A stretch of DNA of 25,329 nt from the NCBI GenBank assembly GCA_029858305.1, contig JAOUFI010000028.1, forward strand, positions 1-25,329, in the 5' to 3' direction. The notes beneath the pieces were generated by a model, which saw nothing but the letters and a program-made list of their open reading frames with translations, did not search any database and had not been told where the DNA came from. A program made the position numbers and the translations under genes. Below are positions 1,513 through 16,711 of this stretch, piece after piece; within the stretch, counting starts at the first letter, position 1, and the number at the start of each line of letters is the position of its first letter. This DNA comes from Candidatus Thorarchaeota archaeon. Lineage in GTDB: Archaea > Asgardarchaeota > Thorarchaeia > Thorarchaeales > Thorarchaeaceae.

Positions 1513-1665
1513 GTAGCATCCTCCGAGTCATGCCATGCCTGAAGCTATGCTCACGCCGGAGGGCCTAGGTTCTCACGCTTAACCTTTTCCGTTTATACCA
1601 TCAAATAATTGTATTACACAAGTTGAAAATCGGAACATGTGTTCTGTGATTTGAGTCTGAGTATA

Positions 1666-1953
1666 ATGGTCTCATATCTCTATCTCTATGATTGTAGGCA
1701 TGCAAGACAAAGTAATGCGCGACGTGTGGCATTCACTAAGGAGCTCTACGGGTATACATACACTTGGAGAACAAAGTCAGAAATCAAGGAGAAACGAAAG
1801 CCAGGTCTCTTAGATGAATGTCTTGGAGCTGAAGCTGTTGCAGACTCGGCAATCATTGTTCCTGATGAATATCGAACATTGTTTGATAGCTTATTCTCAA
1901 TGTATCAAGATATTCTCAAATTCAGAGTCTATGAGATAATCAGGGAAGTATAA
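1666..1953 (+). CDS. Small hypothetical protein (95 aa), possibly Cas2/VapD-like ferredoxin fold
   Basis: ATG at 1666 preferred over GTG 1639; TTTATA at 1592-1597. N-terminal YLYLYD strand, basic helix RRVAFTKELYGY, later strand DSAIIV. Confidence 0.65.
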   Translation: MVSYLYLYDCRHARQSNARRVAFTKELYGYTYTWRTKSEIKEKRKPGLLDECLGAEAVADSAIIVPDEYRTLFDSLFSMYQDILKFRVYEIIREV

Positions 1954-2170
1954 TCACTGAGAGAAACCATAGCGGCTCTGTGTTATGAACAAAGAAACAT
2001 GAAAATTTAGATTAGAGAGATACAGAATAAGCGCAATATGCACTTCTATGAACGATCAAAAAAATAGCCATGCTATTACAGTTAACGCTTCGATATGTAT
2101 TTAGAACACGTGTTCTAGTTAGTCTAACCTCCGTACCTTTCAGGATAAGGTCTAAAGATTATCTGGATAA

Positions 2171-2193
2171 CACCCCTTCGTTTCCATTGGAAC
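2171..2193 (-). promoter_or_regulatory. ORB element (Orc1/Cdc6 origin recognition box)
   Basis: Minus strand reads GTTCCAATGGAAACGAAGGGGTG: TTCC..GGAA dyad followed by a G-string, matching the canonical ORB. Confidence 0.85.
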
Positions 2194-2316
2194 TACAAAA
2201 AATGGAGTAGTGTCCAGCGATTGATCGTATGATGATAAAAATGGAGATAAAGACCAGCTTTCGAAACAGCTATTTATACTTACCGGAATCTATACTTATA
2301 GACTATTATCTAATAT

Positions 2317-2338
2317 TTTCGAGTGGAAATGATGGGGT
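2317..2338 (+). promoter_or_regulatory. ORB element
   Basis: TTTCGAGTGGAAATGATGGGGT: dyad plus G-string. Confidence 0.75.
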
Positions 2339-2442
2339 CCTATGGGTATTAGAACACGTGTTCGAACTATTACATGTATTACAGTCTATGACAAAGGATA
2401 GAACACGTGTTCTTAATAATTTCCACGACCACAAGACTGATA

Positions 2443-2467
2443 CACCCCTCTTTATGCAACTCGAAAC
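2443..2467 (-). promoter_or_regulatory. Degenerate ORB-like element
   Basis: Minus strand reads GTTTCGAGTTGCATAAAGAGGGGTG; shares TTTCGAGT and GGGGT with the 2317 box and is inverted relative to it. Confidence 0.5.
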
Positions 2468-2493
2468 AGGCTTCAACATATGGAGGATCCTTG

Positions 2494-4386: not shown

Positions 4387-5001
4387 ATGGTTCGTAATAA
4401 CAGTAATACAATAAGTATTGCAATATCTGGAGTTGGTGGGCAGGGTGTTCTAACCCTTGCAGAGATACTTGCAAAAACCGCCTTAGCTGAGGGGCTCAAT
4501 GTAAGAGTAGGTGAGATCCATGGGATGGCTCAGCGTGGTGGTCATGTGGTGTGTACAATCAGAATCGGTGATGGAGCAAAGGGTCCAGTCATAGATGCTG
4601 GTACTGCAGATTTGCTCGTAGGGTTTGAACCAGTGGAAACCTTGAGAGAAATTCACTTGATAAAAAAGAATGGCTGTGTAGTGATGAGCTCTCATGTTCA
4701 ATATCCCGTTGCTGTTTCTATGGGCCAGGCTGAGTATCCCACACATGAATCGATTCTTCGATCAATCGGTGAATTCACAGACCGTGTAATAGAATTTGAT
4801 GCAATGGATATTGCTTTGAAATCAGGAAGTTCTTATGCTCTGAACATGGTCATGTTTGGTGCAATTCTCGGAACCGGACTTGTACCTATAAGTAAGGATT
4901 CTGCACTACGTGCAATTCGTGAATCATTTCCTAAACGGTTTGAAAAGATTAACATCGATGCAGCAGAAACTGGTTTCAGTACAGTCAAATCATGTCTTTA
5001 A
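4387..5001 (+). CDS. iorB: Indolepyruvate:ferredoxin oxidoreductase beta subunit
   Basis: GVGGQGV and EIHGMAQRGG motifs; abuts iorA. Confidence 0.95.
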   Translation: MVRNNSNTISIAISGVGGQGVLTLAEILAKTALAEGLNVRVGEIHGMAQRGGHVVCTIRIGDGAKGPVIDAGTADLLVGFEPVETLREIHLIKKNGCVVMSSHVQYPVAVSMGQAEYPTHESILRSIGEFTDRVIEFDAMDIALKSGSSYALNMVMFGAILGTGLVPISKDSALRAIRESFPKRFEKINIDAAETGFSTVKSCL

Positions 5002-5023
5002 TACTAGTATTATTTGTATTACA
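4997..5023. repeat. 9-bp tandem triplet (TGTAWTACA family)
   Basis: TTTAATACT AGTATTATT TGTATTACA at the convergent iorB/hypF junction. Confidence 0.8.
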
Positions 5024-7400
5024 TTACTTCATTGATGATTCTGGCTGCTACTGTTGCTACTTGACCTACTGAGATCCCTCCATCGCCAGGGGGAATCAAG
5101 GAATGGAACACAGGGACTAGATTATATTTCTGAATTTGATTTTCAATCGCGGATGTTACAATACGATTGAGCGCAACACCCCCAGAGAATCCTATATACA
5201 GTATCTCTTCCTCCAATGCTAAATCACAAGCGATTCTCGCAAGACTTTCACCAAGATGCCACTGAGCTGCATAGGCCAATTCCACTCTACTTGTACCCTT
5301 GTCCTTCATATCAAGTATCTCTTCTAGAGAATGAGTTGTATCTAAGACTAGTCCATAATCCGATTTGACAAACTCAGAGTCAATTCGAATATCAGTACGA
5401 CGGGCAATAGCTTCGAGCTTCATTGGGCACTCACCATCGTAGGTATTCTCAGAGCATACTCCAAGTGCAAGTGCCACTGCATCAAGAAATCTACCAGCAC
5501 TCGTACTCTTTATTATATTCACACTTTGTTTTCTTGCATGAAGTAAAACATCCAAAACTTTCCCAGAAACCTTCGTGTCTGGAGCAATTGAAGATGATCC
5601 CAAGAGCTGAAGGAGCCTTTTCTTTTCTATACTATTTCCAATTATTCCTATTAGCGATCTAGCCGCATAGATAGCTGATAAATCTCCGCCAGTATATTCC
5701 TGTGCTTTCAAACCCCCTCTTCGGACTGAATCGCTATAATTTCCCACAAGAATCTCTCCGCCCCATGCATTCTTATCTAATCCATAGCCGAATCCGTCTG
5801 CTGTAATACAAATAATACGGCTATCATACGGTATCAATCCGTCAACCATTATTGCAGCCAAATGTGCATGATGGTGCTGTATACGATAAAGTGGAATCTC
5901 ATACTCAGTAGCCATTTTTTCTGCGAAATCTGTGCTCAAAAACTCTGGATGCAAATCGCATGAAACAGCATCTAGTTTCTTGATGTCTAATAGATGCAGC
6001 ATATGATCAATCGCATTTGAAAGGAAATCGATGTTCTCAATCTGATTAGTGTCTCCAATATGTTGTGTCATGTAAATTCGGCCAGACTTTGAAACTGAGC
6101 CAGTTGCCTTTTCCTCAGGACCCACTCCTACTATCTTTAGTGCTCTCCATGGACCATTGAAGAGAATTGGTTCTGGTACATAACCCCTTGCACGTCTGAT
6201 GAATACTGGATTTGTTTTATCTATGAGCTTGACCACCGAGTCATCAGCCCGTTGATGTATTCTTCTATTATGCACCAGGAAATAATCAACGATATCTCGC
6301 AGTTCATTCATGATAATTTCAGGTTCGATATACATTGGCATTCCTGTCGGGTTAGCGCTTGTTAGAACTAGGGCTGGTTCGTTGGTATGTCTGAAGAGAA
6401 GATGATGTATCGGCGCATAGGGTAGCATAACACCAATACTGTCTAGTCCTGGAGCTATAGATTCCAAGGACTCGATTGGTATTACTGGTAATACATTATT
6501 CTGTTTCTTCAGACTTGTAATTGTCTTCGTGACCAGTACAATTGGTCTTCTCCAAGATGTGAGTATCTTCTCTTCAAGCTCATTGATATTACTCAGATGT
6601 TTTAGTGTTGAAAGATCTCGAACCATAATTGCAAAGGGACGATGAGACCTCTTCTTTCGCAATCTGAGTGTTTCTATTGGTTCATGATCACTGGTCTTCG
6701 TAGCAATGTGGGTTCCTGAAATTCCTTGAAGTGCTACAATGGCTCCCTCATCAATTAGCTGTGCTGTTTTTTCAATCGGATTTGTATTTGCTATCGTTGT
6801 ACCTCTGCTGTCTACTACATGATAGACAGGACCACAATTATGACAAGCCGTTGTCTGTGCGTGATATCTACGGTCAGTTGGATTTGTATAACCTGTATTA
6901 CAAGTATCACATAACGGGAAGTCGAGCATTGTGGTATTGGGTCTATCATATGGTAAATCTGTAATAGTTGAAAATCTAGGTCCACAAGCGGCACATGATG
7001 TAAATGGGTAAAGATACCAACGTGAGTTCTCATGCATCAAATCATTTACACAATCCTTGCAGATTGCAATATCAGGTGGCAATACAGGAATTGCATCTTC
7101 ATTTCGAATTGTTGAAGATTTATGGATTTGAAATTCTTTGAACTCCTCTTGAGAGTCAGTCCACTCTAAATCTAGTGTATCAATCCGCGAAATTGAGGGT
7201 GAATCGTTTCTAATACTCTGAACCAATTTTTGAATATGTGTTTCTTCACCCTCCACAGTAACCTCAACGCCTGCATCACCGAGGTTTAATACATAACCTA
7301 AAAGCGACAAGGATTTCGCAACACGATAAACAAAAGGTCTGAATCCTACTCCTTGGACTATTCCAGTCACATGAATGGTCGCTCTCTTGTTCGCCATCAT
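5019..7400 (-). CDS. hypF: Hydrogenase maturation carbamoyltransferase HypF
   Basis: Acylphosphatase GIVQGVGFRPF, zinc fingers (CGPRF, DRRYHAQ), YrdC-like domain, QHHHAH and PPGDGGISVGQ. Confidence 0.97.
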   Translation of the reverse strand: MMANKRATIHVTGIVQGVGFRPFVYRVAKSLSLLGYVLNLGDAGVEVTVEGEETHIQKLVQSIRNDSPSISRIDTLDLEWTDSQEEFKEFQIHKSSTIRNEDAIPVLPPDIAICKDCVNDLMHENSRWYLYPFTSCAACGPRFSTITDLPYDRPNTTMLDFPLCDTCNTGYTNPTDRRYHAQTTACHNCGPVYHVVDSRGTTIANTNPIEKTAQLIDEGAIVALQGISGTHIATKTSDHEPIETLRLRKKRSHRPFAIMVRDLSTLKHLSNINELEEKILTSWRRPIVLVTKTITSLKKQNNVLPVIPIESLESIAPGLDSIGVMLPYAPIHHLLFRHTNEPALVLTSANPTGMPMYIEPEIIMNELRDIVDYFLVHNRRIHQRADDSVVKLIDKTNPVFIRRARGYVPEPILFNGPWRALKIVGVGPEEKATGSVSKSGRIYMTQHIGDTNQIENIDFLSNAIDHMLHLLDIKKLDAVSCDLHPEFLSTDFAEKMATEYEIPLYRIQHHHAHLAAIMVDGLIPYDSRIICITADGFGYGLDKNAWGGEILVGNYSDSVRRGGLKAQEYTGGDLSAIYAARSLIGIIGNSIEKKRLLQLLGSSSIAPDTKVSGKVLDVLLHARKQSVNIIKSTSAGRFLDAVALALGVCSENTYDGECPMKLEAIARRTDIRIDSEFVKSDYGLVLDTTHSLEEILDMKDKGTSRVELAYAAQWHLGESLARIACDLALEEEILYIGFSGGVALNRIVTSAIENQIQKYNLVPVFHSLIPPGDGGISVGQVATVAARIINEVM
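6885..6911. repeat. 9-bp tandem triplet inside hypF
   Basis: TGTATAACC TGTATTACA AGTATCACA; the last 18 bp are identical to 7994-8011. Confidence 0.75.
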
Positions 7401-7565
7401 TACTCATTTTGAATCTGGAATTCAAACTAGATATTAATCCAGTGAATTGACAATATTGTGAATTGGTTTTACAGAGTTCTTCGATGTATTACATATATCA
7501 CCATGTTTCAGAGAATTTCATATAGGTCCTCTTAAGGTAGTGTAAGAACTAGTAATCGATTAGCC

Positions 7566-7979
7566 TTGACACCTAATACGCATATATCATCAGTAGCTCA
7601 AGATCCTGAGCCCACTACCTCAGTCCTGGCTGCAATACCAGACTGTCTAAAAAGCACACTTATTGACTGTGCAAATAGTGAAGCGAAATCAAGGAAATCA
7701 ACACTTATCTCAAGCAACAACCTTACCAACCGGTTCATATTATCTAGGTGGGGGATTAGACCATCTCAACGGAGGAGATACAAGAATCTATTCGCTTCGA
7801 TTCGAAAACACTGTCGTGTTTTATTCCAGCATTACCTTCTACGAGGAAGGATAGAATGGATTGATAATTCAGGTCGGCATGTTTTCGGCGTATTCAAGTT
7901 TGATGAAGTTCGAGGCAATCTTATTCTCGGTTTTGTAGAGATGACTCCCGAGTCAGAATGGACCTTATCTCATCGCTAA
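7566..7979 (+). CDS. Hypothetical basic protein, possibly winged-helix DNA-binding
   Basis: 137-aa ORF (TTG start) with three predicted helices, an Arg/Lys-rich stretch (SQRRRYKNLFASIRKH) and C-terminal beta strands. Confidence 0.65.
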   Translation: MTPNTHISSVAQDPEPTTSVLAAIPDCLKSTLIDCANSEAKSRKSTLISSNNLTNRFILSRWGIRPSQRRRYKNLFASIRKHCRVLFQHYLLRGRIEWIDNSGRHVFGVFKFDEVRGNLILGFVEMTPESEWTLSHR

Positions 7980-7984
7980 GCACC

Positions 7985-8011
7985 TGTAATTCTTGTATTA
8001 CAAGTATCACA
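7985..8011. repeat. 9-bp tandem triplet
   Basis: TGTAATTCT TGTATTACA AGTATCACA, just after the stop codon at 7979. Confidence 0.85.
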
Positions 8012-8169
8012 ATTCTAATGGTGATGTTTAAGAGGACTAGCTAATGTATACGATTTTGTATCCGCACAGAGCAACAGAAACATCCTGTGAACAAAAGGTG
8101 TGAAAATGTCCTAAAAGGCCATTTTGAGGCGTTTTAGTACACTCGTACATATAATGATGATGGAGAAAC

Positions 8170-8718
8170 ATGGCTATGAATGAGAAACGAGATACGCAAT
8201 CAAATCGAAAAATAATGAAAGAACTGACATTGGGAGCTAGACAAGTATTACAAGAACCAATTCTTAAGATACTACAGAATGGTTCAGTTCTTAGCCAAAC
8301 ACAGCTTGAAACACTCTTAATTGATCTTGTTATCGAAGATAACTATGGGGCACATATCACGTATGAAGACAAAGCATCAATTCGTTCTCGTGCTGGGGCT
8401 AAGACAAAGGGTGTATCCAGAGGTGCCTTCAACAGAACACTCAAGCAAGCCAGAAGAAATGTTACTCGATGTTTCTATACGATGCTACTTCTTACGTATC
8501 TTGGATTATTTGAATTAACAATATTTCGTCCTTTTGAAGAGGTTGCTGCACGTATAGGTGACTATAGAAGAATACGTGAAATTCTTGCAGGGAAATCTGA
8601 GTTGACTCAAGAAGATCTAGAAAGCGTCAAAGTAACAGAACGTACAATCGTATCCCTTCTAGAAGACCTCTCATTGTCACTTGCTCTGAAAACAGATATC
8701 TCTCGTAAAAGGCAATAG
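8170..8718 (+). CDS. Conserved archaeal hypothetical protein with HTH (HTH_10/Tfx-like) pattern
   Basis: LSQTQLETL...ITYEDKASIR...VSRGAFNRTLKQARRN parallels the LTxRQ...ISRSTFxxHLxxAxxK pattern of HTH_10 domains. Confidence 0.7.
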   Translation: MAMNEKRDTQSNRKIMKELTLGARQVLQEPILKILQNGSVLSQTQLETLLIDLVIEDNYGAHITYEDKASIRSRAGAKTKGVSRGAFNRTLKQARRNVTRCFYTMLLLTYLGLFELTIFRPFEEVAARIGDYRRIREILAGKSELTQEDLESVKVTERTIVSLLEDLSLSLALKTDISRKRQ

Positions 8719-9068
8719 ATAGTTTCTTGAAGAATTTTGTCGATAATCAAAGTTCAAAAAAGAAATGGCTCGAGCGTGCCGCACATAGAAGCGGGACCAA
8801 TGAGTGGAGTCACCATCAACACTTGTGCATTCAAGCTACTAGTTGAGTCATCCTGGAAGTTTTGAGGAGATAGAGATGACACTGAAAGTGCCTGAGATGT
8901 CAAAGAGACCGTGATCCAATGACATCAGTCTATCTTCTATTATTACGACACACTCATACATACACTCACAACAATTATACATAGTTCTAATCATAGAACG
9001 GCAAGTTTTTTCCTAATACAGGTTTCTCCGTTCCCAGAAATCTGAATTTACTCCTTTCCTAATATCTC

Positions 9069-9095
9069 TATAATACTTGTAATACAAGCAATACA
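9069..9095. repeat. 9-bp tandem triplet
   Basis: TATAATACT TGTAATACA AGCAATACA, intergenic. Confidence 0.85.
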
Positions 9096-9177
9096 GTGGC
9101 TCCTATGAGAATAATACACTTAATCATATATTGGTGCCTTTGCTATTTTTAGAAAGCAACAATCATGAGGTCCTCTA

Positions 9178-10419
9178 TTGGCAGAAGATGACAATCGGGC
9201 AAAAATTCTGAAAGCTGTCAAGGACCATGTAAGGCAGTCAGAAGAACAACAACGTGTGCAAATGATTGCTGATGCAATCGGCGAACGAAGAGATCGTGAC
9301 CTGCTCGATATAATATCTTCAATCGAGCAAGATAGAGGATGGCCAGAAACATTACAGCATTTGCAGAAAGCTCAGAACTTCAGTTATTCTCTTCCTGTTG
9401 GCACTGGACCGCTTAAAATTAAAGTTGAAGACTTAAAATTTCGAGAGATGCTCTTCTCTGTTTTAGGGTGTCGCGGGTTAGAACCTATTCCAGTAAATAC
9501 TGAAGAAATCTTGACCCAGATGAAGGACGAGCGTTCGATAGTAGATGCCTCTGATTCAATACGTAAGTATATCGAATCAATTGCACGCAGTCAGATTGAA
9601 ACTGGTGATTCTTTGTTTTTTGATTCAAATGACTTTGACATCCAAGTTTCAGAAGATATAACTCAAATAATCGAACAGCTGAAGCATAAAGAGGTTCAAG
9701 GAATAACTCTGGAACAGAAAGATGATAATATCAATATCGCTCCGCTCTGGTACTGTGAAACCGGACGACAGATATTATCGAGTTATGGAATCAAGGGATT
9801 CATCATTGGCGCAAAACAGTTAGAAGAAGTATTATCTGTAATACAATTTCCTGTAGTCGTCAATAATGTCAATCAATATACAGTACAGCAAAAACAATCA
9901 GACTATCCCTCAAATAAATCGTACCGTGATCTGCATAACTCCATCATTAATCATGATGATGAGAGATTATCTTTACTTTCAAGCAGACATTCATTTTCTA
10001 CACTGAAATCGATGTTGGAGGAAACACTTGATGTATATAACAAAGATTCTTCAAGTGAGAATTACAGGCAGTTTCTTCATCTCATTCACCTTCATGTCAA
10101 AGTTCGAACGCTGGATTCAATACAATTGTTTGAAAGATTGGCATATCTTAAAGATAGAAGAATAGCGACAGTAGCAATTACTGCACTTGGTAATTATTAC
10201 CATGAATCAGCGGCTATTGCTCTGGTAGAGATACTTTGTAAAAGTAAGAATCGCGAGATTGTTAAGACAGCAACAAATGCTATTCTGAATGTAGGAAAAA
10301 GAAGTCCTGAAACTGTTTCAGTGATTGCAACAGCTCTTGAATCATCGACCTGTACATACAAAGGACGATTGAACCGACTTTGGAGAGAATTCGGGAAGAA
10401 AAATCAATTGTATTACTAG
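9178..10419 (+). CDS. Hypothetical protein with C-terminal HEAT-like repeats
   Basis: 413-aa ORF, GAGGT upstream of TTG; IATVAITALGN and IVKTATNAILN resemble HEAT repeats. Confidence 0.75.
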   Translation: MAEDDNRAKILKAVKDHVRQSEEQQRVQMIADAIGERRDRDLLDIISSIEQDRGWPETLQHLQKAQNFSYSLPVGTGPLKIKVEDLKFREMLFSVLGCRGLEPIPVNTEEILTQMKDERSIVDASDSIRKYIESIARSQIETGDSLFFDSNDFDIQVSEDITQIIEQLKHKEVQGITLEQKDDNINIAPLWYCETGRQILSSYGIKGFIIGAKQLEEVLSVIQFPVVVNNVNQYTVQQKQSDYPSNKSYRDLHNSIINHDDERLSLLSSRHSFSTLKSMLEETLDVYNKDSSSENYRQFLHLIHLHVKVRTLDSIQLFERLAYLKDRRIATVAITALGNYYHESAAIALVEILCKSKNREIVKTATNAILNVGKRSPETVSVIATALESSTCTYKGRLNRLWREFGKKNQLYY

Positions 10420-10435
10420 TACTACATGTATTCAG
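10409..10435. repeat. 9-bp tandem triplet
   Basis: TGTATTACT AGTACTACA TGTATTCAG, spanning the stop codon. Confidence 0.8.
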
Positions 10436-10480
10436 ACTAACACGACAGACATAAAACGAATTCTTCTCTCGCGTCAGACT

Positions 10481-11872
10481 ATGCCAAAGTCACAGGTCGA
10501 ATTATATCAGAGCATTGATTCCTTCTTCAATCCAACGAAAGTCGCTTTGGTAGGTGCATCTGCAGATTATAGAAAATTAGGTAATTCAATACTAATGAAT
10601 CTCCTGAGCTCCGAGGTTGAGGTTTTTCCCGTAACTCATAGTAAAGAAAAAGTCCTAGGTGTGAGAGCATATCCAAGTCTTGCAGATTTACCAGAACCTG
10701 TTGATTTAGTTATTGTTGCAGTAGCCGCTAAATATTGTCCAGCCTTGATGTCAGAAATTCATAATGCCGGTGCTAGAAATGCAGTAATCATCTCTGGAGG
10801 CTTTAGTGAAATTGGACCTGAAGGCGCTGAGATAGAAAACACTCTAATCAGAGCTGCTAAAGATGCAGAGGTACGATTTATCGGACCCAATTGCGTTGGT
10901 ATATCTAATAGTCGTCTTTTCAATGGTACTTTCACCATGATGCCTGAACGGGGTAACATTGCTTTCATTTCTCAAAGCGGTGCACTTGGTGGTATGAGTA
11001 TCTATACAACTAGAGCTAAAAGAATTGGAATGAGCAAATTCGCTAGTATCGGTAATTCAGCTGATGTGGGATTCGTTGAAATCTTAGACTATTTCAGACA
11101 GGATCCAAAATCAACTGTGATTGCTGCATACATTGAAGGAATCAGTAATGGAATAGAGTTATTCGAATCACTACGGAGAACAGCACACGAAAAACCAGTT
11201 GTAATACTAAAAGGAGGAAAAAGTGAGGCTGGAAGTCGTGCCACACAGTCACATACTGGATCACTTGCCGGATCAGCTCAGATATTTAACGGTATGATTA
11301 AACAAGCTGGATGTGTAACAGCTCCTACACTTGACACATTATTCGAAATCTGCAAGTTATTTGACTATCAACCACTTCCAGGAGGTTGTAATATTGGTAT
11401 TATTAGTAATACAGGAGGAGCTGGAGTCTTAGCAACTGATGCCGCGTCAGAGCTTGGTTTGAAAATTGCTATCCTCGAAGAAGAAACGCGACACGAACTT
11501 CGACAAATACTCCCACCTATGGCTTCAGTAAATAATCCCGTAGATGTTGTTGCAAGTGGAGGGAGAAGGGAGTACCGTATCGCAACAGAACTTCTTCTCA
11601 AGGATTCAAACGTAGACATGCTACTTGTTATCTGCGGAGTACCAACATTCGCTGGCATGACACAGACAGAACACGCAGCTGGAACTCTCGAAGCTGTTCG
11701 AATGACTGTTACAAGTAAACCTGTTGTCGGGGTTTGGTTGGCTGGAGACGTTGGTAGACCTGGAAAGGATTTGCTGGAAATGAATAGAATCCCATGTTTT
11801 GATGATCCTTTCATTGCAGCACTTTGTATGGCACGAGTGGCTGAGTATACTAGGCTTCATCAACAATTGTGA
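10481..11872 (+). CDS. acdA: ADP-forming acetate/acyl-CoA ligase alpha subunit
   Basis: CoA-binding domain (VGAS, GPNCVG), SQSGA, phospho-His motif SHTGSLAG, NPVD. Confidence 0.92.
   Translation: MPKSQVELYQSIDSFFNPTKVALVGASADYRKLGNSILMNLLSSEVEVFPVTHSKEKVLGVRAYPSLADLPEPVDLVIVAVAAKYCPALMSEIHNAGARNAVIISGGFSEIGPEGAEIENTLIRAAKDAEVRFIGPNCVGISNSRLFNGTFTMMPERGNIAFISQSGALGGMSIYTTRAKRIGMSKFASIGNSADVGFVEILDYFRQDPKSTVIAAYIEGISNGIELFESLRRTAHEKPVVILKGGKSEAGSRATQSHTGSLAGSAQIFNGMIKQAGCVTAPTLDTLFEICKLFDYQPLPGGCNIGIISNTGGAGVLATDAASELGLKIAILEEETRHELRQILPPMASVNNPVDVVASGGRREYRIATELLLKDSNVDMLLVICGVPTFAGMTQTEHAAGTLEAVRMTVTSKPVVGVWLAGDVGRPGKDLLEMNRIPCFDDPFIAALCMARVAEYTRLHQQL
11387..11413. repeat. 9-bp tandem triplet inside acdA
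   Basis: TGTAATATT GGTATTATT AGTAATACA. Confidence 0.7.
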
Positions 11873-11882
11873 TAACTCAGTC

Positions 11883-11907
11883 GGAATACTGTAATACTAA
11901 TATTACA
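11883..11907. repeat. Repeat cluster immediately downstream of the RHH gene
   Basis: GGAATAC TGTAATACT AATATTACA in the convergent gap. Confidence 0.8.
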
Positions 11908-11918
11908 ATCATTTCATT

Positions 11919-12227
11919 TTAAGATTGTTCGAGATACTCTTCTGCTATCTGAGGAAACTGTTGTGCAATGGCCTCACGAAGTTGCTGCTCTACCCACATG
12001 CTCAGATTGATTGCTTTTGTTTTCCGGATAGCCTTAAGACAAGCTCGAAGATCGGTGGGGATGGAGAATGATACAATCGGGCTCTTTCGATCTCTGTTCG
12101 GTACTGCAGAGATAAGCTCAACAGTTTTCATAGGACTACTCGATGATTCCTTTGGAACTGATCGCGTAGTTTGACTTTCATCGTCCTTTTCTGCTTCTTC
12201 ACGTCTATATTTTCCAAGTAGACTCAT
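11919..12227 (-). CDS. Ribbon-helix-helix DNA-binding protein with a charged, probably disordered N-terminal arm (ParG/SegB-like architecture), 102 aa
   Basis: ATG 12227 with GGAGG upstream, 1 bp after the ATPase stop. PIVSFSIPTDLRACLKAIRKTKAINLSMWVEQQLREAI fits the RHH strand-helix-helix pattern. Confidence 0.82.
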   Translation of the reverse strand: MSLLGKYRREEAEKDDESQTTRSVPKESSSSPMKTVELISAVPNRDRKSPIVSFSIPTDLRACLKAIRKTKAINLSMWVEQQLREAIAQQFPQIAEEYLEQS

Positions 12228-12228
12228 A

Positions 12229-13209
12229 TCATTGAACCTCCTTGAGTATAGTTGCATAAGCTTCAGAAACAAGCTCTGCAATTTCTCTATTCACTGTCGG
12301 ATCATTATTCTTGCGAAGAATCTCAGCAGCAACCTGCTGACATCCTCGTGCTAGCATCCTGATGTCGCGTGGATTTCCATTGGCTGCGGTATTAATTACA
12401 GTAATTGCGTCATCAGTGAACGGATAGATATCAAAATTCTCTGGATCAAAACTGTCGATGCGTCCTTGGGCATAAGAAATTCTACGTCCTATGAACTCTC
12501 TTGCTTTTGCATTATTTAACGCAGGCACATCGAGAGGTTCTGTTCTATCTGCAATTTGTGGCAAAAATGATAGCATTGCATTCCAGTAAATCATTGTTCC
12601 AGACATCACTAAGGTGACAATAGGTTCATCAAGAGCCCTCGTTTTTCCATAGGCATCAATCATCTCTTCAGTGGGTAAATCTGCGAGAAAGCGAAGTTTA
12701 TGAAATGCAGCTTCCTGGTTGTCTGCAACATCTTCTATGAAAAGAGCTGTGCGGCTCTGCTCCTCGACATACCTTCTGAGACTTTCTTTTGCAACAGCAT
12801 CAATAATTTGGCTGGACTCCCATGATCGCTTATACTTGACCCTAAGAGAATCGGCAATGGCTGCTGCCATTTGCTTCTCATAGAGTCCAGTCATACCTAC
12901 ATAACCTGTAACAAATTTGTTTCCTCTTCGATCCGCCAGTGTAGGCAGGTCTCTCAATGCTAGAAGCATCAATGTACTCTTACCTGATCCCACAGGCCCT
13001 CGAATGAAAACATGTCGTTCATTGGTTATAATTAGATCAACGATAGAATCCAAGAAGTTACTATCTTCTATGTATAAACGACTGTCAGGCATCTTGAAGC
13101 CGCGAAACGGTGAGAATCTAGCTCCAATTCTTTCCTCCCATGCTCGTAAGACCTCTTTTCGAGTATTGAAGTGCCGAATCAGTGCGCTCTCATGAATAGC
13201 AATCGTCAT
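12229..13209 (-). CDS. AAA+ ATPase, ExeA/TniB/TnsC-like, 326 aa
   Basis: Start at ATG 13209 (GAGGT upstream). Walker A GPVGSGKST, Walker B variant LFIED, sensor-1 region LVMSGT, Arg finger QIADR, lid PFTDDAI...GNPRDI. Confidence 0.85.
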   Translation of the reverse strand: MTIAIHESALIRHFNTRKEVLRAWEERIGARFSPFRGFKMPDSRLYIEDSNFLDSIVDLIITNERHVFIRGPVGSGKSTLMLLALRDLPTLADRRGNKFVTGYVGMTGLYEKQMAAAIADSLRVKYKRSWESSQIIDAVAKESLRRYVEEQSRTALFIEDVADNQEAAFHKLRFLADLPTEEMIDAYGKTRALDEPIVTLVMSGTMIYWNAMLSFLPQIADRTEPLDVPALNNAKAREFIGRRISYAQGRIDSFDPENFDIYPFTDDAITVINTAANGNPRDIRMLARGCQQVAAEILRKNNDPTVNREIAELVSEAYATILKEVQ

Positions 13210-13237
13210 CGTTTGGACCTCTAGTATCTGGAACTTT

Positions 13238-13293
13238 CGTATCACATGTAGTTCATGTAATACAATTTTCAAGAGATGGTTACAGATATAAAA
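13238..13293 (-). promoter_or_regulatory. Predicted promoter of the ATPase-RHH operon with a 9-bp triplet operator
   Basis: Minus-strand TTTTATAT at 13286-13293; CGTATCACA TGTAGTTCA TGTAATACA at 13238-13264 covers the expected transcription start. Confidence 0.7.
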
Positions 13294-13425
13294 TGTGTGG
13301 TAAAAGCTCCAGAATTCCATGTGTCTAGTGTGAGTGATGCGCAACCTTTTTGAACAGAACGAAAGGGTTTGTAGGCTGACCAGCATGTTGGTCATAAGTC
13401 CTTGTTAGGAGATATCTGATCTGAG

Positions 13426-13704
13426 ATGGACGTTGAACGGATTAAGCACATCATGAATTCCCTAATGATATTATCATTCCTCATTTTCGGAGGTCTAATT
13501 GCAATCATGATCATCGGTGATGTTAGTTTGAATAATGCAACGGTATCCCTTCCATTTGCATTCATGTTCATCTCTATTATAACGCTCATAACTACAGGTC
13601 AAATAAACGAAAGACCGAAATTAGCCCAGAAATATCTAAGAGATTGGCTAATTATCTGTACAATCGGAATCGTCATTAGTGCCCTAGTGTTTACATTTTA
13701 TTGA
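13426..13704 (+). CDS. Small membrane protein (about 3 TM helices)
   Basis: Three hydrophobic segments in 92 aa; AGGAG upstream. Confidence 0.8.
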   Translation: MDVERIKHIMNSLMILSFLIFGGLIAIMIIGDVSLNNATVSLPFAFMFISIITLITTGQINERPKLAQKYLRDWLIICTIGIVISALVFTFY

Positions 13705-13738
13705 AAGAACTGAATCATTGGACTTTGGAGTGAAATAA

Positions 13739-14374
13739 ATGAGTGCGATTCTCCCAGGCACAAAGACTACACGTATGGAACTACTAGCGCTAAAGAATCG
13801 AATGAAGCTTGCTGAACGAGGCCATGATCTTCTTCGTGAAAAACGTGACTCATTAATTATGGAGTTCTTTAATGCGATAGCCGAAATCAAAGAAGCAAGA
13901 GAGAAGGTGGATTCAACACTGGCTGAAGCTTTCTCAGCTCTTACACAAGCAAAAATGATTATGGGTCCTTCTCGAGTGATAGAGTTTGCATATGCAAGTA
14001 AGTTTGAGGCTGAATTAAATATATCCACAAGATCGATGATGGGTGTTAGGGTTCCAATTCTCTCTGTTGAACAACGTAGTCCCGAGCTTCCTTATTCACT
14101 ATCGGATTCAAGCACAAAATTTGATGTAATGGGCGAGAAGTTTAAAGATGCACTCAAAGCGATTGTCCGACTTGCGGAGATTGAGTCGACGGTAAAACGT
14201 CTAGCATTAGAAATCGAAAGGACAAAGAGACGTGTTTCAGCACTTGAAACCGTTGTTATTCCAAGATTGGATGCAACTGTTCGTTTTGTAAAACTTGCAC
14301 TAGAAGAACGTGAACGAGAAGATTTTGTCCGTCTTAAGATGGTTCGAGATTGGATTACAGCTGAAACAGAATAA
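13739..14374 (+). CDS. atpD: A/V-type ATP synthase subunit D
   Basis: TRMELLALK...GHDLLREKRDSL and EIERTKRRVSALE..VIPRL motifs. Confidence 0.96.
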   Translation: MSAILPGTKTTRMELLALKNRMKLAERGHDLLREKRDSLIMEFFNAIAEIKEAREKVDSTLAEAFSALTQAKMIMGPSRVIEFAYASKFEAELNISTRSMMGVRVPILSVEQRSPELPYSLSDSSTKFDVMGEKFKDALKAIVRLAEIESTVKRLALEIERTKRRVSALETVVIPRLDATVRFVKLALEEREREDFVRLKMVRDWITAETE

Positions 14375-14385
14375 AACACAACTAT

Positions 14386-14411
14386 TGTATTATTGTATTA
14401 CTGTTATTACA
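14386..14411. repeat. Repeat cluster after atpD
   Basis: TGTATTAT TGTATTACT GTTATTACA; same layout as 11883-11907, and both end TATTACAATC. Confidence 0.85.
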
Positions 14412-14494
14412 ATCTCACTAGGTTGAGTTCCTAGACAATACCAGCGATAGGTAGAGAAGTTCTTACTCGGAAAAAGAAAGCTGTAAGATTGGAA

Positions 14495-15202
14495 TCAAAG
14501 GGTTCCAATATATGTTAAGGTCACATTCAGTAGTGCGCTGAACATGCAACTAGGATAGTTCACGTAGAATCTGGCTACAAGCGGAACTCCGGTATCAAAG
14601 GCTGTCCATCCCTCCCATATGTATGTGGCGACATTCGGAAATATTGAAAGCAACTTTCTAGACCCAAAATACATACTCTCATTCAGTCTGAAACTTGCAC
14701 AATGAGTTACTGACCCAGATCTATCAACATCGGGAGCAGCAATCACTGGAAACTCGTCAAGAAAGAACCTGTCAATCAAAGTCCAATCACCCAGTGGTAA
14801 GATTGATTGAGAAAGAGGTTTTCCAATGTTAGTAGCAAATTCGTTAGGAAATTCGTCAGGAAGCTCAGTTCCGTTTGAGAAACGACAAGATATCTTGTAC
14901 ATTTCTACTACCTGGGACTGAAATGTAGAGCTTGATACCAATCCTGCTACATTGGGTAATTCAACAATTTGGACAATCAGCTGTTCACCATCAAGACTGA
15001 GATAATTGGAGTAGGTGTATCCATAATTTGAATTAGATTCATCATGTGAAACGTTTACGGAGTAAAGAATTTCATCTCCCACTGAAACTCCCCAGTAGAA
15101 AGGAGATTCGAAAGTTCCAACTAGAGAGAAAGCTAGAATACTAACAGAACCAATCAGTATCACAACAAGGACTAATGCCATTAATCGGCGTTGTCTTTGC
15201 AT
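14495..15202 (-). CDS. Hypothetical secreted or membrane-anchored protein
   Basis: N-terminal RQRR plus hydrophobic signal/anchor, followed by a beta-rich domain (WGVSVGDEILYSV). Confidence 0.75.
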   Translation of the reverse strand: MQRQRRLMALVLVVILIGSVSILAFSLVGTFESPFYWGVSVGDEILYSVNVSHDESNSNYGYTYSNYLSLDGEQLIVQIVELPNVAGLVSSSTFQSQVVEMYKISCRFSNGTELPDEFPNEFATNIGKPLSQSILPLGDWTLIDRFFLDEFPVIAAPDVDRSGSVTHCASFRLNESMYFGSRKLLSIFPNVATYIWEGWTAFDTGVPLVARFYVNYPSCMFSALLNVTLTYIGTL

Positions 15203-15341
15203 AATTCACACGCCCTATACTATGTTGTAGATGAATCTAAGCAATTAGAGCTTCTTATTGAAGCTATTCTTAGAATATGAAAAGGATTGATCAATACTGC
15301 TTGTGAGTCTTCTGAGAATCATCAAACGATGAGAATCTGGC

Positions 15342-15366
15342 TGTATATTGTATTAATGTTATTGCA
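15342..15366. repeat. Degenerate repeat cluster downstream of nac
   Basis: TGTATAT TGTATTAAT GTTATTGCA, similar to 14394-14411. Confidence 0.6.
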
Positions 15367-15375
15367 TCATATAGC

Positions 15376-15771
15376 TCAATGCCGCAGCTTCAATATTGCA
15401 GCTGCCAAGTCACCTTCAGTTTCTATCAGCACCTTTTTCGCAGTTTCAATATCAACACCAGTTTGACCTGCAACAAGTGCAGCATCCTCAATTGGAATCT
15501 CAATCTTTTTCTCAGGAGCTGGTTTCTCAGCTGCTACAGATGTTTCCGTTGGCTGTTTTCCTGAACGTAAACGTTCTGTTTTCGAACCTGCGACTTGATA
15601 TGTTTCTGTATTTGCTTGTTTTACCATAGTGACTTGGGGATTTGAAATAACCCATTCTTTGTCCGCGAAACGGATTATTACTTCTTTAACGCCATCTAGA
15701 TCCTTCTGCTCGATTCCCATCTTTCTCATCATTCGTTCCATCTGTTTCGGAGACATTCCTCGAAATCCCAT
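15376..15771 (-). CDS. nac: Nascent polypeptide-associated complex protein
   Basis: PKQMERMMRKMGI...VKEVII NAC domain and C-terminal UBA-like domain (GDLAAAILKL). Confidence 0.95.
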   Translation of the reverse strand: MGFRGMSPKQMERMMRKMGIEQKDLDGVKEVIIRFADKEWVISNPQVTMVKQANTETYQVAGSKTERLRSGKQPTETSVAAEKPAPEKKIEIPIEDAALVAGQTGVDIETAKKVLIETEGDLAAAILKLRH

Positions 15772-15874
15772 AACATCACATCTGTTGTAAGACTAGAGCA
15801 GTAGAACAATAATCATTATCCTGCTACCTGTATGCTGCCTTTCTTCTATAGATAAAATGATTACGCTTGTGAAA

Positions 15875-16711
15875 TTAGACAGACTCAACAGAGATATCGA
15901 ATACCACATGACTAATCCCTGGTGAATAGTTCTTAATCTTTCGTACTTCTATTTCTGGCACAAACTCATGCTTTCTGCAGATATCTGTAATACATGTAAT
16001 ATTTTCCTCTATTGTTTTTTCTGAAACAGCCTTATGCATGTGAATTATACCTCCCTCTTTTATCAATGTTTCAAGAGCATACGGCAGAAATGTTTCAGTG
16101 TCGTGCAAGTATCCCATAATGACACGGCTGGCAACATGAGTTGGATGAACAATTCTACAGTTTCCTAGTACCGCAGTGACTTTGTCTTCTAATTCATTCA
16201 TCTCAATATTCTCTACAAGAAATTCATATGCTTCTGGATTGATTTCAATAGCGATGACATTAACATCATTCCTTTTTGCGATATGCAGTGCAAATTGACC
16301 TACGCATGCAAACATGTCTACAACGCACTCTCCTAGTTTAATGCGTCTAGACATACCAATTCTTTCTCCTTTGTTTCCTCCCGAAAAAGTCATTCGAACA
16401 GGGTCAAACTTGAAACGAACCTTGTTCTCAACATGCAAAGTTACAGTATCTTTACTTCCTGCTACTACTTCATAAAAGGGCCTACGCTCAATTCCCTTAG
16501 TTGGTCCGGTTTTGACTGCTACGGATTTTAATCTATGATCGTAGTCAAGCGTTGCTTTTCCTATAGTCGTAACATACTCCATAAGTTCAGGATTCAGATG
16601 TAGTAGGGCAACATGTCCTACGACGTGAAATCCTGAAGGTAAAGCCAAATTCTGTGGTATTGAGTCCTTCAAACGAGCTCGGAGGAATTCTCTGTATTTC
16701 ATATACCTCAC
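15875..16711 (-). CDS. Trm5/Taw2 (Met-10+ like) tRNA-modifying SAM-dependent transferase
   Basis: HVENKVRFKFD, FSGGNKGER, VDMFACVGQF, EINPEAY, KIKNYSPG. Start may be ATG 16702. Confidence 0.9.
   Translation of the reverse strand: MRYMKYREFLRARLKDSIPQNLALPSGFHVVGHVALLHLNPELMEYVTTIGKATLDYDHRLKSVAVKTGPTKGIERRPFYEVVAGSKDTVTLHVENKVRFKFDPVRMTFSGGNKGERIGMSRRIKLGECVVDMFACVGQFALHIAKRNDVNVIAIEINPEAYEFLVENIEMNELEDKVTAVLGNCRIVHPTHVASRVIMGYLHDTETFLPYALETLIKEGGIIHMHKAVSEKTIEENITCITDICRKHEFVPEIEVRKIKNYSPGISHVVFDISVESV

What the first reader, a model, noticed from the sequence alone, without database searches (positions are those of the whole stretch)
11883..13293. Candidate new chromosome segregation system: non-ParA AAA+ ATPase, RHH adaptor and flanking tandem repeats
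Seen: a translationally coupled pair (1-bp gap) of a 326-aa AAA+ ATPase followed by a 102-aa protein with a charged flexible N-arm and C-terminal RHH, with clusters of the 9-bp repeat directly upstream (13238-13264) and downstream (11883-11907). Known: NTPase gene, then RHH centromere-binding gene, plus phased tandem repeats is the layout of type Ib (ParF-ParG) and type II (ParM-ParR) partition cassettes; Sulfolobus SegAB also pairs an ATPase with an RHH protein. Here the NTPase lacks the ParA deviant Walker A (KGGxGKT) and is not actin- or tubulin-like; it resembles ExeA/TnsC/MuB-type AAA+ proteins, and TnsC and MuB polymerise on DNA. No transposase or secretion genes are nearby. Inference: a partition or nucleoid-organising module using a different motor class, about 10 kb from a probable oriC.
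Basis: partly seen in the sequence, partly recalled or inferred. Interest (0 to 1): 0.92.

Follow-up and report, generated by a model that had tools for sequence, protein, structure and literature searches.

The report
Origin-linked AAA+/RHH centromere-like system
An Asgard archaeon carries, next to its replication origin, a very strongly conserved ATPase and small DNA-binding protein surrounded by about twenty arrays of a 9-letter palindrome that is almost absent from the rest of the genome. This looks like a chromosome-segregation or origin-organising device built around a motor type not known from such devices.

Summary
A 326-aa AAA+ ATPase (12229-13209, minus strand) and a 102-aa ribbon-helix-helix-like protein (11919-12227) are 1 nt apart. 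A 3-unit array of the 9-bp palindrome lies upstream and a 2-unit array downstream.

New here:
- Only 17 exact TGTAWTACA occur in the 3.04-Mb genome, and 13 are in this 25-kb contig.
- The units form about 20 arrays with strict 9-bp phasing, spaced about 0.75 kb apart over 1.6-16 kb.
- That stretch contains the only full ORB-type origin element in the assembly.
- The clustering recurs in other Thorarchaeia genera and in a family whose ATPase is 45% identical. Two further families have their own phased palindromes, one tightly clustered and one weakly.
- The ATPase is single-copy and about as conserved as the proteasome ATPase PAN. It is confined to several Asgard lineages, where it lies near ORB elements and, in three lineages, 2.5-4.2 kb from orc1/cdc6.
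- One lineage has canonical ParA-ParB at this position instead.

Best reading (about 0.5): a parABS-like, origin-proximal partition or organising system with an ExeA/ORC/TnsC-clade AAA+ partner. Origin control is the main rival. No binding or function was shown. I found no description in print.

The parts
12229..13209 (-). AAA+ ATPase, 326 aa, ExeA/AAA_22-type, initiator (ORC/Cdc6-TnsC) clade. Walker A GPVGSGKS, Walker B FIEDVAD, GNPRDIRML in the lid.
   Evidence: Translation. Pfam AAA_22/AAA_16 below cut-off. A profile of 16 family members matches ORC1 (4xgc_A, E 1.4e-4, query 67-313) and VchTnsC (7ufi_1, E 1.1e-3, query 65-293). Single copy in the genome. 77-93% identical across Thor genera.
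11919..12227 (-). 102-aa protein: conserved N-terminal helix (MSLLGKYRREE...), variable disordered linker, C-terminal ribbon-helix-helix-like domain.
   Evidence: Translation. AF2 topology. Foldseek's top rows are almost all RHH proteins (Arc, SvtR, CopG, SegB, pCXC100 ParB), but E is 0.48 or worse. Atlas nearest named clusters are all RHH clan, including ParG. Pfam RHH_1 matches 2 of 15 family members.
13238..13264 (.). Three-unit 9-bp array at the predicted transcription start of the operon; probable operator.
   Evidence: A core site lies within about 100 nt upstream of the ATPase ATG in 34 of 34 readable upstream regions (Thor, f2, f27).
13286..13293 (-). TATA-like box (TTTTATAT on the minus strand) preceded by a conserved ACCACAC, 21 nt upstream of the array.
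   Evidence: Conserved block TTTACCACACnTTTTATAT in the aligned upstream regions. Calling it a promoter is inference.
11890..11907 (.). Two-unit array in the gap between the convergent 3' ends of the acetyl-CoA-synthetase-like gene and the RHH gene.
   Evidence: A site about 1.3 kb downstream of the ATPase start recurs in G242, G075 and G124.
1610..15994 (.). Domain of 20 phased arrays of nGTAWTACn, 1-4 units each. Starts: 1610, 2366, 3535, 4393, 4997, 5802, 6478, 6885, 7485, 7985, 8244, 9069, 9828, 10409, 11200, 11387, 11890, 13238, 14394, 15986. Mean spacing 757 bp. Outliers at 20786, 21419 and 23523.
   Evidence: In coding DNA there are 12 cores against 3.4 expected from synonymous shuffles, 0 of 500 reaching 12.
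2173..2337 (.). Probable oriC core: full ORB (2173-2191, minus strand) and mini-ORB (2324-2337, plus strand) in inverted orientation around an A+T-rich stretch.
   Evidence: It is the only full ORB-pattern match in the 3.04-Mb assembly. A mini-ORB or ORB lies at 10.0-11.2 kb in 8 of 10 other Thor genomes, as an inverted pair in 4. The ORB consensus itself is recalled, not taken from a call.
8170..8718 (+). Linked 182-aa protein of unknown family (conserved GVSRGAF-R-L-QA-N ... LLGY block), possibly helix-turn-helix. Always within about 5 kb of the ATPase.
   Evidence: It sits beside ParB in 3 of 3 f13 genomes. The Sigma70_r4 lead scores only 0.79.

Best explanation
This is an origin-proximal, centromere-like nucleoprotein system of Thorarchaeia and several other Asgard lineages. 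It has three parts.

(1) About 20 arrays of a 9-bp palindromic unit (core GTAWTAC) are set in strict 9-bp phase. They are spaced about 0.75 kb apart over some 15 kb that includes oriC. The unit is otherwise avoided in the genome.

(2) A small dimeric ribbon-helix-helix protein is inferred to bind one unit per dimer and to fill each array cooperatively. That would coat the origin region with many small complexes. Through the array on its own transcription start it would also repress the operon.

(3) An ExeA-type AAA+ ATPase of the ORC/Cdc6-TnsC clade is inferred to be recruited or switched by the conserved N-terminal helix of the RHH protein. It would then assemble on DNA in an ATP-dependent way.

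The likely outcome is that the newly replicated origin regions are gathered, positioned or pulled apart, which is the job parABS does in bacteria and SegAB in Sulfolobales. It may also give other machines, such as SMC-type complexes, a loading platform.

Shown here: gene pair, arrays, phasing, genome-wide uniqueness, conservation, origin linkage.
Inferred: who binds what, ATP-dependent assembly, segregation.
For: Uniqueness: 13 of 17 TGTAWTACA in the genome lie in this contig. The core is 15-fold enriched here.

Phasing: of 259 cores in the Thor and f27 loci, 133 have a copy with at most 2 mismatches at -9 and 132 at +9, against a background of about 5. Array sizes across the window and 10 Thor genomes: 1 unit 42, 2 units 102, 3 units 68, 4 units 5, 5 units 2.

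Not only promoters: arrays lie in convergent 3'-3' gaps (4997, 11890) and in coding DNA, where 12 cores stand against 3.41 +/- 1.59 from synonymous shuffles, 0 of 500 reaching 12.

Conserved clustering within +/-20 kb of the ATPase:
- G103: 10 of that genome's 12.
- G242: 7 of 8.
- G075: 9 of 19.
- G124: 15, G185: 11, G197: 9 (genome totals not measured).
- f27 G262: 7 within 13 kb.

Other lineages have analogous arrays with other units:
- f19: wGATATCA at a 13-bp period. 10 of 61 genome copies lie within a 15-kb stretch that spans orc1 and the operon.
- f12: TTCAWTGAA at a 9-bp period.

Avoidance elsewhere: 2-4 copies outside the domain, below the reversed-pattern controls.

Origin linkage: ORB at 10-11 kb in Thor. 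orc1/cdc6 lies 2.5 kb (Jord), 4.2 kb (f19) and 2.8 kb (Odin) from the ATPase.

ATPase conservation: 93/91/81/81/78/78/77% identity, against PAN at 93/89/82/82/82/81/79% and GatD at 80-59% in the same genomes.

RHH architecture (N-terminal helix, disordered linker, RHH) resembles ParG and SegB.

No canonical ParA, MinD or ParB was found in this genome. In f13, 3 of 3 genomes carry full-length ParB (with ParA in the one locus read) directly beside the linked 182-aa gene, and no ATPase of this family was found there (0 of 3).

The nearest solved relatives, ORC1 and TnsC, are ATP-dependent DNA-bound assemblies (TnsC filaments from the abstract of 10.1101/2021.05.25.445634 as shown in the listing).
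Against: No binding, ATPase or segregation data exist.

The array binder could be the linked 182-aa protein rather than the RHH protein.

Clustering is not universal:
- f2 G112 has 34 copies genome-wide and only 2 in the 13.5-kb locus.
- G152 has 3 and G098 has 5 within +/-20 kb.
- G055 keeps only the 7-bp core.
- f12 G043 has 81 copies genome-wide and only 5 near the operon.
- No array was found in the Jord, Odin or f21 loci.

Origin proximity fits replication control equally well. The ATPase belongs to the initiator clade.

ParAB lies near origins in general, so its position in f13 may reflect origin linkage rather than replacement.

The genome is 88.9% complete, so a ParA could be missing from the assembly.

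The AF2 models are of modest confidence (pLDDT 65-66).
Confidence: 0.5

Rival explanations
1. Replication-origin control module. The RHH protein and the initiator-clade AAA+ ATPase would bind the array field around oriC to license, sequester or time initiation, or to help Orc1/Cdc6 or MCM loading. Segregation would not be their job.
For: - The module lies next to ORB elements and/or orc1/cdc6 in all lineages examined.
- In Odin and f21 the PolD small-subunit gene is also adjacent (that assignment comes from reading the sequence and was not scanned).
- The array at 2366 lies directly beside the mini-ORB.
- The ATPase's nearest solved relatives include ORC1, Orc4 and Cdc6.
Against: - The arrays spread over about 15 kb, inside genes and in 3'-3' gaps, far beyond any described archaeal origin.
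- The ATPase lacks the winged-helix domain of Orc1/Cdc6 and scores 16 bits against a 181-bit cut-off on TIGR02928.
- True Orc1/Cdc6 genes exist elsewhere in the genome.
Confidence: 0.25
2. An ordinary autoregulated transcription factor (RHH) controlling a local regulon, with the ATPase as a co-regulator or an unrelated co-transcribed gene.
For: - The 3-unit array sits about 21 nt downstream of a conserved TATA-like box of the operon.
- 9 of 24 cores lie in the 13% of the window that is non-coding, several of them 30-100 nt upstream of start codons.
Against: - Arrays lie in convergent 3' gaps and are selected inside coding DNA.
- The neighbouring genes are functionally unrelated housekeeping genes.
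- The near-exclusive confinement of the motif to one 15-20-kb domain, and its avoidance elsewhere, is not how regulons look.
- The ATPase is as conserved as PAN.
Confidence: 0.12
3. A mobile, defence or toxin-antitoxin module (RHH antitoxin plus ATPase), or a restriction-modification target motif.
For: - RHH proteins are common antitoxins (Atlas rows Antitox_RHH and HicB).
- Short palindromes that are rare genome-wide are typical of restriction sites.
Against: - The module is single-copy and present in 69 of 76 Thor genomes, with conserved housekeeping synteny.
- PADLOC gives no significant hit.
- No integrase or transposase is in the window.
- Restriction avoidance does not give phased 9-bp tandem arrays clustered in one domain.
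Confidence: 0.03

Closest known systems
Type Ib plasmid partition (ParF-ParG-parH of TP228; delta-omega of pSM19035)
   Same: Gene order is NTPase first, then a small RHH centromere-binding protein with a flexible N-terminal tail. Phased tandem repeats serve as centromere and operator. Autoregulation is implied. (The features of the known systems are recalled; ParG appears as an Atlas neighbour.)
   Different: The NTPase here is an AAA+ of the ExeA/ORC/TnsC clade, not a deviant-Walker-A ParA. The system is chromosomal and has about 20 arrays over 15 kb, not one array.
SegAB-segS of Sulfolobales
   Same: An archaeal chromosomal operon of an ATPase plus an RHH site-specific DNA binder. There is a repeat site upstream of the operon and further chromosomal sites (passages of PMC12139799; abstract of PMC8682754 in the listing).
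   Different: SegA is ParA-like. No SegA/ParA-type gene lies next to this RHH gene. Here the sites are almost confined to one origin-proximal domain.
Bacterial chromosomal parABS
   Same: Multiple short palindromic sites cluster around oriC, some inside genes, and the operon lies nearby. (The general statement comes from the abstract of PMC7022226 in the listing.)
   Different: There is no ParB/CTPase fold and no ParA. With an RHH binder, spreading or sliding would presumably be replaced by many discrete arrays (inference).
TnsC / TniB / ExeA (AAA_22) ATPases
   Same: Same AAA+ subgroup by profile. VchTnsC matches at E 1.1e-3 over query 65-293. Outgroup hits carry AAA_22, TniB and an ExeA-like AAA_22 plus PG_binding_1 architecture. 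JGI labels the family 'ExeA'.
   Different: There is no transposase, TniQ, secretion gene or peptidoglycan-binding domain. The synteny is fixed and made of housekeeping genes.
Archaeal Orc1/Cdc6
   Same: Initiator-clade AAA+ and origin-adjacent. These are the top Foldseek rows (1w5t, 1fnn, 2qby; TM only about 0.3 on a weak model).
   Different: It lacks the C-terminal winged helix and fails TIGR02928 (16 bits against 181). Bona fide orc1/cdc6 genes are present elsewhere.

Membership tests
Type I (ParA/ParF Walker-type) partition systems | NTPase is a SIMIBI ParA with deviant Walker A KGGxxK[ST] | tested here: not met
   Walker A is GPVGSGKS. The Pfam and NCBIfam hits are AAA+ families, with no CbiA, AAA_31 or ParA hit.
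Type I (ParA/ParF Walker-type) partition systems | Second gene encodes a centromere-binding protein (RHH in type Ib) with an NTPase-stimulating N-terminal tail | tested here: inconclusive
   RHH-like topology and RHH-only structural neighbours, at non-significant E-values. Atlas shows the RHH clan, including ParG. The conserved N-terminal helix is seen. Stimulation of the ATPase is not testable here.
Type I (ParA/ParF Walker-type) partition systems | Repeated centromere sites next to the operon | tested here: met
   Phased arrays lie upstream and downstream of the operon, plus a field of about 20 arrays.
Type II (ParM) / type III (TubZ) partition systems | Actin-fold or tubulin-fold NTPase | tested here: not met
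   AAA+ P-loop protein by Pfam, PDB profile and Foldseek.
Any DNA partition system | Demonstrated stabilisation or segregation of the replicon | not testable with these tools
   Needs genetics or cell biology.
ExeA/GspA (type II secretion) family | AAA_22-type ATPase domain | tested here: inconclusive
   P0001 scores 23.9 bits, below the cut-off of 27. Relatives pass: P0244 at 34.4 and P0258 at 52.8. The ExeA-like sequence blocks are recalled, not tested.
ExeA/GspA (type II secretion) family | Peptidoglycan-binding domain and/or ExeB or secretin partner genes | tested here: not met
   No PG_binding domain in the protein. No secretion genes in the window.
TnsC/TniB transposition regulators | Encoded with a transposase and target selector inside a mobile element | tested here: not met
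   No transposase in the window. Synteny is conserved across 7 Thor genomes.
Orc1/Cdc6 initiators | AAA+ plus C-terminal winged-helix domain, matching TIGR02928 | tested here: not met
   16 bits against a 181.3-bit cut-off. The protein ends with the AAA+ lid helices.
Ribbon-helix-helix superfamily (102-aa protein) | beta-alpha-alpha fold that dimerises through the strand | tested here: inconclusive
   The AF2 monomer shows an extended stretch at 50-57 and two helices, pLDDT 73-88. Foldseek's top rows are RHH proteins, best E 0.48. Pfam RHH_1 matches 2 of 15 members at E 2.2e-4.

The most novel reading that the evidence does not exclude
Asgard archaea outside the Loki and Heimdall groups segregate or position their chromosome origins with a fourth class of partition machine. 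An RHH adaptor coats a multi-array centromere around oriC. An ORC/TnsC-clade AAA+ ATPase works as the ATP-driven partner in place of ParA, ParM or TubZ. Centromere and origin are physically merged in the archaeal group held to be closest to eukaryotes (reviewed in PMC12993045).
Probability: 0.33. Interest if true: 0.95.

Novelty: new variant of a known kind. Interest (0 to 1): 0.85.

Why it matters
How Asgard archaea organise and segregate their chromosomes is not known. Neither of the two Asgard papers whose passages I read (a replication-machinery study and a review) holds the word 'segregation' in its main text.

This locus gives a concrete and testable candidate:
- a defined DNA motif with a genome-wide address;
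- a small protein that can be tested by EMSA or DAP-seq without culturing the organism;
- an ATPase as constrained as the proteasome ATPase.

If it is a partition system, its motor class would be new for DNA segregation. It would tie an initiator-type AAA+ protein to a centromere-like domain at the origin.

If it instead controls initiation, it would be a new layer of archaeal origin regulation.

In either case it marks the likely oriC of Thorarchaeia genomes.

Tried and rejected
- Complex prediction on ATPase plus RHH (alignments A1, A4) returned 'no answer', score 0.00. It says nothing either way.
- The AF2 model of the ATPase from a shallow alignment was weak (pLDDT 65.4; residues 36-89 poor). 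Foldseek TM-scores were therefore only about 0.3. A first AF2 job failed.
- Single-sequence PDB, PADLOC and NCBIfam searches gave only local P-loop matches.
- The scan's earlier findings held nothing by sequence or by words. The notes on other contigs of this genome did not bear on this locus.
- RNA evidence: a single 300-nt contig of one sediment metatranscriptome lies on 12679-12978. This is too little to claim expression.
- No phased arrays were found with my simple k-mer scan in the Jord, Odin, f21, f6 and f13 loci. This may reflect the method.
- TA, defence and mobile readings were rejected on copy number, synteny and conservation.
- Literature: searches found no description of this ATPase-RHH-array system. 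The library lacks most subscription journals, and no supplements were opened.
Full report
OBSERVATION

On the minus strand, a 326-aa ORF (12229-13209) is followed after one base by a 102-aa ORF (11919-12227).

The first ORF has a classical Walker A (GPVGSGKS) and Walker B (FIEDVAD). It scores just below threshold on Pfam AAA_22 (23.9 bits against 27) and on AAA_16. It scores weakly on the ExeA-like TIGR03015.

The second ORF has no Pfam hit. It scores weakly on two RHH-type NCBIfam models, YlcI/YnfO and ORF56.

13238-13264 is three 9-bp units and 11890-11907 is two units.

The other 21 ORFs scanned are archaeal housekeeping genes or have no Pfam hit, with no transposase or secretion gene. They include PAN, TFE, GatDE, NAC, HypF, an indolepyruvate-type oxidoreductase and an ADP-forming acyl-CoA synthetase.

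THE MOTIF IS THE MAIN SURPRISE

Exact TGTAWTACA occurs 17 times in the whole 3.04-Mb assembly (mononucleotide expectation about 43). Thirteen of the 17 are in this 25.3-kb contig (binomial 2e-24).

The functional core is the 7-mer GTAWTAC.
- It occurs 24 times here, 0.95 per kb, against 0.063 per kb elsewhere.
- One relative, G055, keeps the core in 12 of 14 one-mismatch sites but has no exact 9-mer.

The units stand in strict 9-bp register. Of 259 cores in the window, 10 Thor genomes and 2 f27 loci, 133 have a copy with at most 2 mismatches at -9 and 132 at +9. At -18 and +18 the counts are 42 and 31. At other offsets the count is about 5. Most arrays have 2 or 3 units.

The window holds 20 arrays between 1610 and 15986, with mean spacing 757 bp (sd 348).

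The arrays are over-represented in non-coding DNA: 9 of 24 cores lie in the 13% of the window that is non-coding. They also lie in convergent 3'-3' gaps. Inside genes there are 12 cores against 3.41 +/- 1.59 after synonymous codon shuffling, with 0 of 500 shuffles reaching 12. The DNA sequence itself is therefore under selection, and not only at promoters.

CONSERVATION OF THE PROTEINS

The ATPase is single-copy in this genome. In the 5.8-billion-protein set, 133 proteins reached E 1e-3 or better. The best 120 are listed at 64-96% identity. Most of those that carry a name are Thorarchaeota, and JGI calls them 'ExeA'.

An exhaustive HMM search of 1.84 billion cluster representatives found only 27 proteins at E 1e-3 or better. 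The weakest hits are generic AAA_22 proteins, including TniB-like and ExeA-like ones.

Across 301 Asgard genomes the single-protein query hit as follows:
- Found: f1 69 of 76, f2 1 of 1, f27 8 of 11, f19 5 of 6, f7 5 of 5, f3 4 of 4, f21 3 of 3.
- Not found: f9 0 of 68, f5 0 of 28, f22 0 of 21, f14 0 of 11.
- f12 gave 1 of 19. That one hit is 88% identical and fills the first 958 bases of a short contig, so it is probably mis-binned.
- f6 (1 of 1) and f20 (1 of 7) gave marginal local matches only (E about 5e-6).

A profile of divergent members then found a 434-439-aa relative in 2 of 2 f12 loci examined.

Public labels attached to exact matches identify f7 as Jordarchaeia and f3 as Odinarchaeia. 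f27 carries a 'Heimdallarchaeota' label.

Among seven Thor genomes from five other genera and this one, the ATPase is 93/91/81/81/78/78/77% identical. In the same genomes other window genes score as follows:

| Protein | Identity (%) |
|---|---|
| PAN | 93/89/82/82/82/81/79 |
| AtpD | 96-73 |
| GatD | 80-59 |
| HypF | 75-54 |
| Small (RHH-like) protein | 80-47 |

The ATPase is thus among the most constrained genes of the neighbourhood.

THE PAIR AND A THIRD GENE

A small protein with the same build (basic N-terminal helix, variable linker, strand-helix-helix C-terminus) follows the ATPase in f1, f2, f27, f19, Jord, Odin, f21 and f12.

A 170-200-aa protein of unknown family lies within about 5 kb of the ATPase in all these lineages. 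In the window it is at 8170-8718. Its phyletic pattern is nearly the same as the ATPase's: f1 68 of 76, f2 1 of 1, f3 4 of 4, f7 5 of 5, f19 5 of 6, f21 3 of 3, f27 7 of 11. It is also found in f12 (13 of 19), f13 (3 of 3), f6 (1 of 1) and f5 (1 of 28).

In f13 no ATPase of this family was found (0 of 3). There, a full-length ParB lies directly beside this third gene in 3 of 3 genomes. In the one locus I read, it is preceded by a ParA with KGGVGKT. Elsewhere in the phylum only partial ParB-domain matches appear.

This genome has no hit to that ParA or ParB. Its four strongest SIMIBI ATPase matches are:
- a GET3/ArsA-family protein;
- an Mrp/ApbC-like protein;
- two weak MinD-like proteins, at 72 and 50 bits against a cut-off of 202. 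One of these lies beside a gene that looks like a CO-dehydrogenase/acetyl-CoA-synthase subunit; I read that from the sequence and did not scan it.

A fifth, sub-cut-off CbiA match on contig C188 (20.9 bits) was not examined. The genome is 88.9% complete.

ORIGIN LINKAGE

I used an ORB-type pattern whose consensus I recalled from the archaeal-origin literature (Robinson et al. 2004, which I saw only as a reference-list entry in PMC12680538).

The only full match in the whole assembly is at 2173-2191(-). An inverted mini-ORB lies at 2324-2337(+) across an A+T-rich stretch. Both are 10.9-11.0 kb downstream of the ATPase start and inside the array field.

A mini-ORB or full ORB lies at 10.0-11.2 kb in 8 of 10 other Thor genomes examined. 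It is an inverted pair about 130 bp apart in 4 of them. The two exceptions are G055, where the ORB is at 13.2 kb, and G152, where none was found. A further ORB lies at about 15.1 kb in five of the genomes.

ORBs also occur in the loci of f19, Jord G006, Odin, f12, f13 and f6. The main orc1/cdc6 gene lies 2.5 kb (Jord), 4.2 kb (f19) and 2.8 kb (Odin) from the ATPase. In the two Thor genomes checked it is 75 kb and about 1 Mb away, with a paralogue at about 35 kb.

CONSERVATION OF THE ARRAY FIELD

Exact 9-mers within +/-20 kb of the ATPase:

| Genome | Within +/-20 kb | Genome total |
|---|---|---|
| G103 | 10 | 12 |
| G242 | 7 | 8 |
| G075 | 9 | 19 |
| G124 | 15 | not measured |
| G185 | 11 | not measured |
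| G197 | 9 | not measured |
| G191 | 6 | not measured |
| G098 | 5 | not measured |
| G152 | 3 | not measured |
| G055 | 0 (core-only sites instead) | not measured |

In other families:
- f27: G262 has 7 in 13 kb. G238 has 3 within 2 kb of the operon, out of 39 genome-wide.
- f2: G112 shows no cluster, with 2 in 13.5 kb out of 34 genome-wide.
- f19: a different unit, wGATATCA at a 13-bp period with 3-5 units per array, clusters around orc1 and the operon. Ten of 61 genome copies lie within that 15-kb stretch.
- f12: TTCAWTGAA at a 9-bp period, but 81 copies genome-wide and only 5 within 8.3 kb of the operon.

Three Thor assemblies lack both the ATPase and the third gene. They have only 3, 4 and 2 copies of the motif, all dispersed and below the reversed-pattern controls of 10, 5 and 21. 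The region is probably unassembled in these genomes, and the avoidance elsewhere persists.

PROMOTER

A core site precedes the ATPase ATG in all 34 upstream regions that could be read. One locus starts inside the gene. Most Thor and f27 regions share three features:
- a block TTTACCACACnTTTTATAT;
- about 21 nt further on, the array TGTATTACA-nGAAnTACn-TGTGATACn;
- a GAGGT about 8 nt before the ATG.

If the TATA assignment is right (inference), the array covers the transcription start. That is the classic position of an autorepressor operator.

FOLDS

A profile of 16 diverse family members matches ORC1 over the whole AAA+ module (4xgc_A, E 1.4e-4). It also matches Vibrio TnsC (7ufi_1, E 1.1e-3), Orc4, Cdc6 and RFC3. 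The AF2 model is weak. Its best Foldseek rows are archaeal Orc/Cdc6, with TM about 0.3.

The AF2 model of the small protein shows helix 3-14, a disordered linker, an extended stretch at 50-57 and two helices. Foldseek's best rows are almost all RHH proteins, including Arc, SvtR, CopG, MatP, SegB and pCXC100 ParB, but at E 0.48 or worse. The Atlas neighbours are all of the RHH clan, including ParG.

INTERPRETATION

The layout is an NTPase, then an RHH adaptor with an N-terminal tail, flanked by phased repeats. On top of that come an origin-proximal field of sites avoided elsewhere, the absence of any detected ParA/ParB, and ParAB at this position in f13. Together these fit a parABS/SegAB-like origin-segregation or origin-organising system whose ATP-using partner is an initiator-clade AAA+. 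I put this at about 0.5.

Origin control is the main rival, at about 0.25. It explains the origin linkage and the AAA+ clade. It does not explain a 15-kb field of arrays selected inside genes.

A local regulon (about 0.12) and mobile, TA or R-M readings (about 0.03) fit poorly.

Which protein reads the arrays, whether the two proteins touch, and what the ATPase does are all inferred. The complex prediction gave no answer.

PRIOR WORK

Searches, and passages read in PMC12139799, PMC12680538 and PMC12993045, turned up no description of this system. The library is incomplete, and I opened no supplements.

Noticed in passing
window 1633-1644, 2104-2115, 2352-2363, 2401-2412: A second palindrome, GAACAnnTGTTC, brackets the ORB pair. 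Four of the 8 GAACA[CT]GTGTTC copies in the whole genome are here. Three to four copies lie at the same place, about 10-12 kb downstream of the ATPase start, in 7 of 8 other Thor genomes; G098 has 2. It may be the site of another origin factor, perhaps the linked 182-aa protein.
   Followed up: partly
window 1639-1953 (+): This 104-aa ORF, with a Cas2-like look that I read from the sequence and did not test, has homologues beside the module in Jordarchaeia (118 aa, 44% identical). A longer protein sharing the RFFRELYGY block occupies that place in f12 (189-199 aa). It has an array 29 nt upstream of its start.
   Followed up: partly
L061 (G012) 5885-9392; also G023 and G034: In family f13, ParB lies directly beside the 182-aa-type gene in 3 of 3 genomes. 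In G012, the one locus read, ParA precedes ParB and TnpB-like fragments lie in between. No ATPase of the window's family was found in f13 (0 of 3).
   Followed up: partly
L032 (G038, f19) 680-8570: Arrays of wGATATCA units at a 13-bp period, 3-5 units each, surround orc1 and the ATPase operon. Ten of 61 genome copies lie within that 15-kb stretch. The cognate small protein has a different strand sequence (NFNVRMP against VSFSIP).
   Followed up: partly
window 1-25329 (whole contig C176): The window is an entire contig. In 7 of 76 Thor assemblies both the ATPase and the third gene are missing. In the three of these that were checked, the motif stays rare and dispersed. The origin region may often fail to assemble or bin.
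   Followed up: partly
window 9178-10419 (+): A 413-aa protein with a weak HEAT-repeat match lies in the middle of the array field. It is the least conserved gene of the neighbourhood, at 63-31% identity where found.
   Followed up: no
window 13739-14374 (+): An A/V-type ATP synthase subunit D gene stands alone here, preceded by a 92-aa membrane ORF. No other ATP synthase subunits are in the window.
   Followed up: no
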